The notes under the pieces: generated by a model
Seen by the model: the letters and a program-made list of their open reading frames with translations, nothing else
What the model was told of the DNA's origin: nothing
Databases searched by the model: none
Made by a program: the position numbers and the translations under genes
Assembly (NCBI GenBank): GCA_964016885.1
Contig: OZ024763.1
Coordinates: 21,576,001-21,640,000, forward strand
Length of the DNA: 64,000 nucleotides
From: Eledone cirrhosa
Taxonomy: Eukaryota
Direction of reading: 5' to 3'
Shown: one piece after another, positions 13,466-56,305 of the stretch
How the letters are laid out: each line of letters begins with the position of its first letter
Position numbering within the stretch: the first letter of the stretch is position 1

Positions 13466-13526
13466 TTTATTCTGATGACTGAAGACAGACATAACATCTG
13501 CCTTCAAGAAACCACTGGTAAATGAA
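13466..13526 (+). ncRNA. Type I hammerhead ribozyme motif
   Basis: tttatt CTGATGA ctgaagacagacataacatctgccttcaa GAAA ccactgg TA aatgaa. The tail runs into (TA)n at 13558. 13258-13299 is an inverted copy of 13517-13558. Confidence 0.78.
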
Positions 13527-13702
13527 ATAATTATCTTATGTTGTTTATTATATAACTATATATATATATATATATATAGTTACATCAGTGACGTATATAG
13601 GTACTTAAGTTTTGTTGGGTTCTGGACCACAATTCATTCAGTTTGTCATAAGAATGAACTGAGTTCTCTTATCTTGGATATTTCTAGCAAAATTTTACTA
13701 CA

Positions 13703-13746
<44 letters not shown>

Positions 13747-13757
13747 TTTATAGAAGG

Positions 13758-13808
13758 AGCTTCTACAGGACTAGTACTGTTTCATTCAGATGAAATCTTC
13801 AGGAAGCT
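13758..13808 (-). ncRNA. Type I hammerhead ribozyme motif (inverted copy)
   Basis: Exact reverse complement of 13827-13877. Confidence 0.88.
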
Positions 13809-13826
13809 GAAGATTCAGGAAGCTGA

Positions 13827-13877
13827 AGCTTCCTGAAGATTTCATCTGAATGAAACAGTACTAGTCCTGTAGAAGCT
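13827..13877 (+). ncRNA. Type I hammerhead ribozyme motif, GUA cleavage triplet
   Basis: agcttc CTGAAGA tttcatctgaat GAAA cag-tactagtc-ctg TA gaagct. 6-bp stem I, 3-bp stem III extension, loop containing palindromic ACTAGT. Confidence 0.9.
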
Positions 13878-13989
13878 CCTTCTATAAAATAAAAAAATTT
13901 TACTCTGCCATGTATTGAGTACCTTACTTACTGTGGTTATCCCCGACTCAACCTGGGACCTACGTATATATATATATATATATATATAT

Positions 13990-14220: not shown

Positions 14221-14280
14221 AGTAGTTTAATTTTATTTTATATATATATATATATATATATATTCAAAGGAAATCATCAG

Positions 14281-14334
14281 GGCTTTCCTGATGATTTCCC
14301 TCGAATGAAACAGTTCTATATTCCTGTAGAAGCC
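14281..14334 (+). ncRNA. Type I hammerhead ribozyme motif (13827 family) with short 5' fold-back
   Basis: ggctttc CTGATGA tttccctcgaat GAAA cag-ttctatattc-ctg TA gaagcc. 14263-14281 is an inverted copy of the core. Shares the atgtattgagtacctta tail with the 13827 element. Confidence 0.8.
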
Positions 14335-14410
14335 GTTTCTATATTACATCTGTTGCATACACTCTACTAATGTATTGAGTACCTTAGTTGCAGTGATTAC
14401 CTCTGATTGA

Positions 14411-14468
<58 letters not shown>

Positions 14469-23372: not shown

Positions 23373-23662
23373 ATACCAACAACAACAACAACAACAATAA
23401 TAATAAATCGATTGACTTAAGAAATTAGTGCTTTTAGAGTGCATTCTGTGTTGAGAAATGGCACCTAAGACATCTCAATTGCTATAATTAGTGATTTATT
23501 ATATTTAACTCTAGGCCTGTACCGAGAGAGATGCCTAGGATTACAGCCTGTTTCAAATGGTCAGCAACTAAACCAGTTCCCCAGCACCACACAAATAAAT
23601 AAAAAAAATGGGGAGGTGACCACCGTCAAATAAGGTGCTGAATATGTTAGTAGAGTATAGGT

Positions 23663-23719
23663 ATAACTAATCCTGATGATTTATTACAAATGAAACAGTT
23701 CTAGTCCTGTAGAAGTTAT
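23663..23719 (+). ncRNA. Type I hammerhead ribozyme motif (13827 family)
   Basis: ataact-aa-tc CTGATGA tttattacaaat GAAA cag-ttctagtc-ctg TA ga-agttat. Confidence 0.72.
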
Positions 23720-24034
23720 TTTTACAATAAAATGAATACGACCCGACGTCCCACGGGTACAAGCCGAAGCTGAAGCATATAGACAATATGCCCCCACCCC
23801 CTCCCACTGCAAAGTGGTTGTGAAGGTCCCACGCAAAAAAGCACCCAGCACTCACTGTAAATGAGGTTGGTGTTAGGAAGGGCATTCAGCTGTAGAAATT
23901 AAGCCAAAATCAGTTCCCTAATGAGCAAGACAAAGTTAGCTGACCGGGCACTGCCCACAACAGGACAACTCGTCTAACCCATGCTAGTGTGGAAGAATGG
24001 ATGTAAAACGGTGATGATGATGATGATGATATAT

Positions 24035-24442: not shown

Positions 24443-24505
24443 ATTTCATTATACATATTTCAAGGACACCAAGTTAAATTATGGTGTGCTTTCATCAGAT
24501 AAAAT
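24443..24505 (-). ncRNA. Minimal type I hammerhead motif (inverted copy)
   Basis: Reverse complement of 24901-24963. Confidence 0.8.
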
Positions 24506-24900
24506 ATATAGAGTAGTTTTAATATTGACATACCCTTAAAGAATGCGACCATTTCTGTTGGATTTCTTTTTTCGTTTCTCTCTTTTCTCTCTCTCCTCTT
24601 CTTTCTCTCTCTCCTCTTCTTTCTCTCTCTCCTTTTCTTATTTTCCTCTTAGAGTTTGCTCTTTTTTCTCTTTTTTCTCTTTTTTTTATATCTCTCTTTT
24701 TTCTCTCTCTTTTTTCCCTCTCTCTCCTTCTCCATAACCCAACGGCTTATTTAAATCTACTATGATTTTAAAATATCCAAAACTAATTTACATAATAGTA
24801 TTAATAAATTTATAACCCCACTATCCGGGAGCTTCCAACAGAAATGGTTGCATTCTTTAAGGGTATGTCAATATTTATTTATAAAACTGCTCTATATTAT

Positions 24901-24963
24901 ATTTTATCTGATGAAAGCACACCATAATTTAACTTGGTGTCCTTGAAATATGTATAATGAAAT
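24901..24963 (+). ncRNA. Minimal type I hammerhead motif
   Basis: attttat CTGATGA aagcacaccataatttaacttggtgtcctt GAAA tatgta TA atgaaat. Stem II acacca/tggtgt. Confidence 0.82.
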
Positions 24964-54656: not shown

Positions 54657-56305
54657 CTCTCAGACCTTCTATCAATGTCTCAGACCTTCTATCAATGTCT
54701 CAGTCCTTCTATCAATGTCTCAGTCCTTCTATGAATGTCTCTGTCCTTCTATCAATGTCTCAGTCCTTCTATCAATGTCTCAGACCTTCTATCAATGTCT
54801 CTGTCCTTCTATCAATGTCTCAGACCTTCTATCAATGTCTCAGTCCTTCTATCAATGTCTCAGTCCTTCTATCAATGTCTCTGTCCTTCTATCAATGTCT
54901 CAGTCCTTCTATCAATGTCTCAGACCTTCTATCAATGTCTCAGTCCTTCTATCAATGTCTCTGTCCTTCTATCAATGTCTCTGTCCTTCTATCAATGTCT
55001 CAGTCCTTCTATCAATGTCTCTGTCCTTCTATCAATGTCTCAGTCCTTCTATCAATGTCTCAGTCCTTCTATCAATGTCTCTGTCCTTCTATCAATGTCT
55101 CAGTCCTTCTATCAATGTCTCAGTCCTTCTATCAATGTCTCAGACCTTCTATCAATGTCTCAGTCCTTCTATCAATGTCTCTGTCCTTCTATCAATGTCT
55201 CAGTCCTTCTATCAATGTCTCAGTCCTTCTATCAATGTCTCTGACCTTCTATCAATGTCTCAGTCCTTCTATCAATGTCTCTGTCCTTCTATCAATGTCT
55301 CTGTCCTTCTATCAATGTCTCAGACCTTCTATCAATGTCTCAGTCCTTCTATCAATGTCTCAGACCTTCTATCAATGTCTCAGTCCTTCTATCAATGTCT
55401 CAGACCTTCTATCAATGTCTCAGTCCTTCTATCAATGTCTCAGTCCTTCTATCAATGTCTCAGACCTTCTATCAATGTCTCAGTCCTTCTATCAATGTCT
55501 CAGACCTTCTATCAATGTCTCAGTCCTTCTATCAATGTCTCAGTCCTTCTATCAATGTCTCAGTCCTTCTATCAATGTCTCAGACCTTCTATCAATGTCT
55601 CAGTCCTTCTATCAATGTCTCTGTCCTTCTATCAATGTCTCAGTCCTTCTATCAATGTCTCAGTCCTTCTATCAATGTCTCAGCCCTTCTATCAATGTCT
55701 CAGTCCTTCTATCAATGTCTCAGACCTTCTATCAATCTCTCTGTCCTTCTATCAATGTCTCTGTCATTCTATCAATGTCTCAGACCTTCTATCAATGTCT
55801 CAGTCCTTCTATCAATGTCTCAGTCCTTCTATCAATGTCTCAGTCCTTCTATCAATGTCTCAGTCCTTCTATCAATGTCTCTGTCCTTCTATCAATGTCT
55901 CAGACCTTCTATCAATGTCTCTGTCCTTCTATCAATGTCTCAGTCCTTCTATCAATGTCTCTGTCCTTCTATCAATGTCTCTGTCCTTCTATCAATGTCT
56001 CAGTCCTTCTATCAATGTCTCAGTCCTTCTATCAATGTCTCTGTCCTTCTATCAATGTCTCTGTCCTTCTATCAATGTCTCAGTCCTTCTATCAATGTCT
56101 CAGTCCTTCTATCAATGTCTCTGTCCTTCTATCAATGTCTCTGTCCTTCTATCAATATCTCAGACCTTCTATCAATGTCTCTGTCCTTCTATCAATGTCT
56201 CAGTCCTTCTATCAATATCTCAGTCCTTCTATCAATGTCTCTGACCTTCTATCAATGTCTCAGTCCTTCTATCAATGTCTCTGTCCTTCTATCAATGTCT
56301 CAGTC
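54657..56305. repeat. 20-bp tandem satellite, about 82 copies
   Basis: Unit cttctatcaatgtct(cag/ctg)(t/a)c with perfectly kept phase. Confidence 0.98.

What the first reader, a model, noticed from the sequence alone, without database searches (positions are those of the whole stretch)
13742..13965. Compact double-hammerhead palindrome with a template-switch footprint at its axis
The inversion axis lies right at the 5' edge of stem I, so the element is little more than two back-to-back ribozymes plus a tail. The axis contains a 15-nt direct duplication, ttcaggaagctgaag (13798-13812 and 13814-13828), which suggests repeated re-priming by the RT. Relatives at 14263-14400 and 23663-23735 also begin at stem I, so the ribozyme boundary may define the 5' end of the mobilised unit (inference).
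Basis: partly seen in the sequence, partly recalled or inferred. Interest (0 to 1): 0.72.

Follow-up and report, generated by a model that had tools for sequence, protein, structure and literature searches.

The report
Penelope twin copies stopping at cap
This 224-base mirror-image repeat is one of many short, back-to-back copies of the front end of a Penelope-type jumping gene, and across the family both halves stop at one fixed base, often with an extra G, which likely marks the capped start of the uncut RNA rather than the ribozyme's edge or cut site.

Summary
Confirmed: two head-to-head type I hammerhead motifs, a 15-nt duplication at the join, and a tail, inserted in (TA)n. It is not a stand-alone element but the 5' end of a young 4.25-kb Penelope-like retrotransposon (1,654 exact tail matches). 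In 98 copies chosen by tail alone, 56 of 131 short arms end at one wall (-46..-44 from the predicted cut; window 13827), 0 in the next 13 bases upstream, 2 at the cut site. The wall lies 29 nt below a TATA box, and an extra G often precedes it (9 of 13 clean junctions, against 8 of 40 elsewhere). A second family has its wall 30 nt below a TATA box, about 50 nt from stem I, so the stem I match is a coincidence of this family. Best reading: two cDNAs primed at both ends of a (TA)n break ran off the capped 5' end of uncleaved sense RNA and were joined. The start site is inferred; no RNA data. A third family has a wall but no clear TATA or G. The architecture is published; the cap footprint was not found in my searches. 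The scan noted the same reading in another genome (e1-8021554).

The parts
13706..13741 (.). (TA)n target, left flank; no TSD can be read
   Evidence: 53 of 58 inverted arms start in TA-rich flank
13742..13808 (-). Inverted arm: parent positions -45 to +22 relative to the predicted cut; outer end = predicted priming site 1
   Evidence: outer ends of 57 of 58 inverted arms lie at +15..+27
13764..13802 (-). Type I hammerhead core of the inverted arm; predicted cut between 13764 and 13763
13809..13826 (.). 18-nt junction insert built from alternating sense and antisense pieces of the arm's first 15 nt; creates the 15-nt duplication 13798-13812 / 13814-13828
   Evidence: similar templated inserts in other copies
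13827..13827 (+). Family-wide wall of 5' ends = first base of stem I = predicted transcription start of the parent (29 nt below TATAAATA, which is absent from this truncated copy)
13827..13877 (+). Type I hammerhead: stem I 13827-13832 with 13872-13877, core from 13833, short stem II with U.U at its base, stem III 4 bp with palindromic loop; predicted cut between 13871 and 13872
13894..13965 (+). Penelope 'tail', about 70-78 nt present on one arm only; its end = predicted priming site 2; in full-length parents it runs on into the RT ORF
13965..13989 (.). (TA)n target, right flank
   Evidence: 92 of 98 tails end in TA repeat
14263..14413 (+). Older relative with short inverted piece, hammerhead at 14288 and tail
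23613..23735 (+). Older relative: hammerhead arm from about 23663 and an inverted piece of tail at 23613-23659

Best explanation
The element is a head-to-head pair of short 5'-end copies of a Penelope-like retrotransposon, and both copies likely ended because the reverse transcriptase ran off the capped 5' end of an uncleaved sense transcript. Shown: parent layout promoter-like region, hammerhead, tail, RT plus GIY-YIG-like ORF, 3' UTR, repeat; two fixed outer ends in (TA)n; a sharp wall of inner ends 29 nt below a TATA box; an extra G before the wall. Inferred: the TATA box starts transcription at the wall; the element's protein cuts (TA)n and primes one cDNA from each end of the break, at +15..+27 and at +93 of the RNA; when it uses the 5'-proximal pair of sites each cDNA is only 65-140 nt long (a strong-stop-like product) and often gains a C opposite the cap; the two 3' ends are then joined through the AGCT palindrome, a cap-derived base or a few rounds of snap-back and re-priming, which in this copy left the 15-nt duplication. 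The hammerhead is a passenger here: it must have been uncut in the template.
For: Wall: 56 of 131 short arms at -46..-44, 0 at -47..-59, 35 at -43..-31, 2 at the cut; 40 of 98 insertions have an arm at the wall. Genome-wide 1,533 -> 644 matches over 3 bases, against 644 -> 566 over the next 10 (patterns differ at their right ends). 31 of 56 wall arms do not overlap the partner arm, so the AGCT palindrome does not explain them. Direct tandem jumps also land at the wall in 7 of 13 loci (by eye). Extra G: 9 of 13 non-overlap wall arms against 8 of 40 off-wall arms, Fisher p=0.002; 33 of 54 non-parent arms, 19 of 40 after dropping partner-templated cases, p=0.002; 75 of the first 100 of 329 genome matches, by eye, none with the parent's C above it. 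G on both arms in 4 of 17 spaced junctions. Family B: wall 30 nt below TATAAATA at a TCACT-type initiator, no palindrome, G in 11 of 15 non-parent arms. An untemplated 5' G is read as cap copying for L1 (PMC9341517, passages). In vitro, a Penelope-like RT starts at two internal sites, extends both strands and uses uncleaved RNA (PMC11167929, parts 1-2 of 4).
Against: No RNA evidence for the start site. The window's own copy has no extra G on either arm. Family C has a wall (-69/-70 from C3) without a canonical TATA box, on a 6-nt palindrome, with G in only 2 of 25 non-parent arms. Several G's in family B and 14 of 54 in family A can be templated by the partner arm. 7 of 17 spaced junctions have no G. 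Families B and C were 30 best-scoring of 1,364 and 293 candidates, not random draws. The 98 copies are the first 100 hits on one contig (two tandem duplicates dropped). The studied D. virilis Penelope promoter is internal and TATA-less (PMC2377424, passages), and the in vitro element primed without homology to the target, whereas here both ends share TA with it.
Confidence: 0.75

Rival explanations
1. The ribozyme fold sets the 5' end: the RT stalls or jumps at the edge of stem I, or ribozyme cleavage makes the template end.
For: The wall is exactly the first base of stem I in this family; relatives at 14288 and 23673 also start near stem I.
Against: 2 of 131 arms at the cut site. Walls of families B and C lie 64 and 69 nt before C3. 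A stall would be expected at the 3' foot of a stem, not after unwinding it (inference). It does not predict the extra G.
Confidence: 0.07
2. Self-priming fold-back at the 4-nt palindrome AGCT, possibly on an antisense template, as proposed for Adineta Penelopes.
For: Perfect palindromic axes are common (11 of 65 non-parent arms; 26 of 58 junctions overlap); family C's wall is on a 6-nt palindrome; proposed in PMC3846280 (Discussion read). Six subfamily-type variants are shared by both arms of one insertion, so both arms come from one source.
Against: 31 of 56 wall arms have no overlap; direct tandem jumps hit the same wall; family B's wall has no palindrome; G on both arms in 4 junctions; other palindromes in stem III are rarely used.
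Confidence: 0.08
3. The wall is a splice acceptor (the parent reads CAG at -46..-44), as in D. virilis, where an intron ends at the 5' edge of helix I.
For: The D. virilis case is stated in PMC4209133 (part 2 of 4); the AG is there in the parent.
Against: Arms keep the AG itself and gain no fixed upstream exon; family B's wall is not after an AG.
Confidence: 0.03
4. For the 15-nt duplication only: it was made by host end-joining (polymerase theta-type templated insertion, recalled knowledge) or by later rearrangement of the palindrome centre, not by the RT.
For: The insert alternates sense and antisense pieces and its first piece is a perfect snap-back, which needs a DNA template (sequence); 16 of 58 junctions carry inserts of 6 nt or more.
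Against: The second antisense piece reaches the wall base again, which fits re-priming on the RNA; inserts occur also at small asymmetric junctions that are poor palindromes.
Confidence: 0.4

Closest known systems
EN+ Penelope-like elements, Neptune/Nematis type (Craig et al. 2021, PMC8557442, passages; Arkhipova et al. 2013, PMC3846280, passages and Discussion)
   Same: pLTR partial tandems, adjacent inverted 5'-truncated copy, tail on one end, (TA)n targets, RT followed by a Cys-rich linker and GIY-YIG-like domain, hammerhead in the pLTR, TATA plus initiator in the pLTR.
   Different: Here over half of the insertions (54 of 98) are compact two-arm copies with a sharp 5' wall and an extra G; the tail is about 70-78 nt, not 30-40; the passages read explain head-to-head palindromes by self-priming, perhaps on antisense RNA.
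Minimal PLE hammerheads, including dual motifs on opposite strands 100-700 bp apart (Cervera and de la Pena 2014, PMC4209133, parts 1-2 of 4)
   Same: Type I core, palindromic loop 3, opposite-strand pairs ascribed to truncated PLEs.
   Different: U.U replaces G10.1-C11.1, stem II is short and stem III has 4 bp; the pair is only 31 nt apart; no 5' wall is described in the parts read.
Poseidon element of Anolis in vitro (Frangieh et al. 2024, PMC11167929, parts 1-2 of 4)
   Same: Two internal RT start sites bounding the tail, both target strands extended, uncleaved RNA as main template.
   Different: There priming needed no homology to the target and the joining of the two cDNAs was not studied; here both ends share TA with the target and the inner ends are mapped.
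Untemplated 5' G of full-length L1 insertions (PMC9341517, passages)
   Same: Extra G at the base before the start site, read as cap copying.
   Different: Here it marks 65-140-nt products on both arms of one insertion.
Metazoan non-LTR retrozymes (Li et al. 2026, 10.64898/2026.07.22.740005, part 1 of 5)
   Same: PLE-derived, hammerhead-bearing, non-coding.
   Different: Retrozymes are head-to-tail tandems thought to move through cut, circular RNA; this copy is head-to-head, begins 45 nt before the cut and lacks its own promoter.

Membership tests
EN+ Penelope-like element | Single ORF with RT followed by C-terminal GIY-YIG endonuclease | tested here: met
   772-aa open segment in L255 with YRDD and a C-terminal domain; atlas look-alikes RVT_1/HTH_animal clusters at 0.93-0.98 and GIY-YIG clusters at 0.95-0.96. 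Pfam and PDB sequence searches gave no significant hit. Most copies are frameshifted.
EN+ Penelope-like element | pLTR from partial tandems flanking the ORF | tested here: met
   promoter-hammerhead-tail block on both sides of the ORF, 4,251 and 4,266 nt apart in L254 and L256
EN+ Penelope-like element | Inverted 5'-truncated copy at the 5' end and a tail on one end only | tested here: met
   58 of 98 copies have an adjacent inverted arm, 57 of 58 starting at +15..+27 while the other arm ends at +93
Neptune or Nematis clade | Cys-rich linker CX2-5CxxC before the endonuclease | tested here: inconclusive
   three-Cys linker present but spaced C-x-C-x5-C-x5-C, not the spacing quoted in PMC8557442
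Neptune or Nematis clade | RT phylogeny | not tested
   no named reference PLE proteins were fetched
Type I hammerhead ribozyme | Core CUGANGA, GAAA, UH with three stems | tested here: met
   in 17 divergent variants the first 4 pairs of stem I hold in 14 and three inner pairs of stem II in 16, with a compensatory change in stem I
Type I hammerhead ribozyme | G10.1-C11.1 pair closing stem II | tested here: not met
   U.U in the main variant and all 17 divergent variants; no Rfam hit
Type I hammerhead ribozyme | Self-cleavage | not testable with these tools
   needs an in vitro assay
Non-LTR retrozyme | Head-to-tail tandem units, each with a complete hammerhead | tested here: not met
   this copy is head-to-head; short tandems are rare in the family (23 read-through matches against 1,654 tails)
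Independent non-autonomous element (SINE or MITE-like) | Copies made from a compact master with one fixed junction | tested here: not met
   junctions differ from copy to copy and compact copies lack the TATA region, so each appears to be made anew from the parent

The most novel reading that the evidence does not exclude
Penelope-like elements insert by double priming: both ends of a (TA)n break copy the same capped, uncleaved sense RNA, and when the 5'-proximal sites are used they yield paired strong-stop cDNAs that are ligated head to head. Genomic copies then act as a fossil CAGE library: they record the start site, the cap (extra G) and perhaps the modified first nucleotide (G-T in place of G-A). 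This would settle the sense-versus-antisense template question for these elements and show the hammerhead is dispensable for insertion in vivo.
Probability: 0.55. Interest if true: 0.72.

Novelty: new variant of a known kind. Interest (0 to 1): 0.55.

Why it matters
How Penelope-like elements make their head-to-head inverted ends, whether they copy sense or antisense RNA, and what their hammerhead does are left open in the papers read (PMC3846280 Discussion; PMC8557442 passages; PMC11167929). A young family with over a thousand junctions gives base-level footprints: two fixed priming sites, one wall, and a cap-like G on either arm. That makes a specific model testable with one CAGE library and one in vitro reaction, and offers a way to map PLE start sites from genome sequence alone. 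The element itself is an ordinary truncated retrotransposon copy, and the ribozyme-boundary idea does not hold.

Tried and rejected
Rfam: no match at gathering scores. Pfam on 7 ORF segments and a PDB sequence search: nothing significant. Sequencing runs: no RNA holder listed, so no reads were laid; this says nothing on expression. One search's 30 loci were biased toward perfect axes by the query and were left out of the distribution counts (they are included). Family B's first reference (L205) carries a variant that shifts the apparent wall to -61; the true wall, -64, was read. One row of alignment A1 had wrong coordinates and the alignment was not used. The listings are counted by eye only, without a scripted test. 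Single-strand folding gave no significant z-score. Stand-alone SINE, MITE and retrozyme readings were rejected (membership table). Literature searches for a cap or strong-stop footprint in Penelope elements returned no paper on it; closed-access papers and supplements were not seen, so absence from print is not shown.

Full report
Observation. Positions below are relative to the predicted cut (13871|13872). The left arm covers -45..+22 (13808 down to 13742), the right arm -45..+94 (13827-13965), and 18 extra bases sit between them. Rfam has no match and the fold is not better than shuffles, but the core is complete, and among 17 divergent variants in my loci stems I and II are mostly kept, with a compensatory change; all have U.U where G10.1-C11.1 is usual. 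Cleavage is untested.

Family and parent. A DNA search of the own genome gave 959 candidates, the best 99-100% identical; a tail pattern has 1,654 exact matches. Some copies continue upstream (566 matches) and 23 continue downstream into an ORF. Long loci show promoter-like region, hammerhead and tail on both sides of an ORF, 4.25 kb apart. One copy has a 772-aa open segment with YRDD, a Cys-rich linker and a C-terminal domain; atlas look-alikes are RT/HTH_animal and GIY-YIG clusters, while Pfam and PDB gave nothing. This is the layout of EN+ Penelope-like elements (PMC8557442, PMC3846280; passages). The clade was not tested by a tree.

I took the first 100 tail hits on contig C1 (selected on the tail only; two tandem duplicates dropped, 98 left) and mapped both arms on a natural long copy. 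58 of 98 have an adjacent inverted arm; 54 of 98 are compact, 31 of 98 carry two full cores; 25 direct arms run more than 150 nt past C3 into the parent. Outer ends are fixed: +15..+27 in 57 of 58 inverted arms, and a TA repeat follows +93 in 92 of 98 tails. Inner ends form a wall: 56 of 131 short arms at -46..-44, none at -47..-59, 35 at -43..-31, 2 at the cut. Genome-wide, 1,533 matches reach -45 but only 644 reach -48, and 566 reach -58 (by hand about 25% against 1.3% loss per base; the last pattern has a different right end).

What sets the wall. Not the cut site. Not only the AGCT palindrome that overlaps it: 31 of 56 wall arms have no overlap with their partner, and direct tandem jumps land there in 7 of 13 loci (by eye). 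In the parent the wall is 29 nt below TATAAATA. As a discriminating test I took two other hammerhead families of the window (30 best-scoring loci each, queried from C3 downstream). Family B's wall lies 64 nt before C3, about 50 nt from stem I, 30 nt below TATAAATA, at a TCACT like the initiator noted for Adineta pLTRs, with no palindrome. Family C's wall lies 69-70 nt before C3, but on a 6-nt palindrome and without a canonical TATA box. So the wall does not follow stem I; it follows TATA in two of three families.

The extra G. The parent has C just before the wall. Truncated arms have G there in 33 of 54, or 19 of 40 after dropping cases the partner arm could template; in 9 of 13 non-overlap wall arms against 8 of 40 arms ending elsewhere (p=0.002); and, by eye, in 75 of the first 100 of 329 genome matches of a pattern that excludes C at that base and G one base further up. 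Four of 17 spaced junctions have G on both arms, 6 on one, 7 on none, the window's own copy among the last. Family B: 11 of 15 non-parent arms, several of them partner-templated; family C: 2 of 25. For L1 such a G is read as reverse transcription of the cap (PMC9341517, passages). Where the wall base is not A it is T in 55 of the first 100 of 300 matches, G-T in 28 and T-T in none (by eye); misreading of a methylated first adenosine is one untested reading.

Mechanism. Inferred model: the pLTR promoter makes a capped RNA that begins at stem I; the protein cuts (TA)n; each end primes one cDNA at one of two sites 70-78 nt apart; on the 5'-proximal sites both cDNAs run off at the cap after 65-140 nt; their 3' ends are joined by microhomology or short rounds of snap-back and re-priming. 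Both arms come from one source, as six variants are shared between arms. Because the arms contain the bases on both sides of the cut, the template was uncleaved. This fits in vitro results for a Poseidon element: two internal start sites, both strands extended, ribozyme mutants without effect (PMC11167929, parts 1-2 of 4). It differs from the antisense self-priming proposed in PMC3846280. In this copy the insert reads, left to right: antisense to the wall, a snap-back sense piece, antisense to the wall again, a shorter sense piece, then the right arm. 16 of 58 junctions have inserts of 6 nt or more, and 8 of these match the first 37 nt of the element better than shuffles at p below 0.03. RT or host end-joining cannot be told apart.

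Novelty. Inverted 5'-truncated PLE ends, tails, (TA)n targets and opposite-strand hammerhead pairs are published. A start-site wall with a cap-like G on both arms was not found in four searches; an octopus repeat paper has no word on hammerheads (PMC13282606, passages). Supplements and closed papers were not seen. No RNA run was available, so the start site stays a prediction.

Verdict. Interest 0.55.

Noticed in passing
family-wide, base equivalent to window 13827: At the wall the first A is often replaced by T, mostly after G (G-T 28, T-T 0 of the first 100 of 300 matches, by eye); may be misreading of a modified cap-adjacent adenosine or an untemplated addition.
   Followed up: partly
window 9320-9710: Another head-to-head double hammerhead of an unrelated family (cores -9471 and +9554, very short stem II), axis about 40 nt before C3.
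   Followed up: no
window 13258-13558: Inverted repeat with a hammerhead core at 13472, a different family, 200 nt left of the finding.
   Followed up: no
window 8440-8690 (-) and 43030-43300 (-), 51100-51280 (+): Hammerhead PLE families B and C, used as controls; each has its own wall of 5' ends and two fixed outer ends.
   Followed up: partly
window 24450-24956, 22018, 53922, 62091: Further type I hammerhead motifs of other families, two of them head to head 410 nt apart.
   Followed up: no
L184/L185 (G000:C11:50145817) and L028/L186 (G000:C17:16794029): Short head-to-tail tandems of 174-176-nt hammerhead units made by jumps from the ORF start back to the 5' end: a possible first step towards retrozyme-like arrays.
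   Followed up: no
L097 (G000:C1:118475164-118477730): A whole two-arm insertion is repeated three times at 1.06-kb spacing.
   Followed up: no
L038/L039 (G000:C1:23353458-23353575) and L092:6430-6640: Two family members inserted into the same (TA)n tract, tail to tail or next to each other.
   Followed up: no
all 18 variants: U.U opposition at the base of stem II is invariant in this hammerhead group, in place of G10.1-C11.1.
   Followed up: partly
window 54658-56270: Tandem satellite of a 20-nt unit, about 1.6 kb.
   Followed up: no
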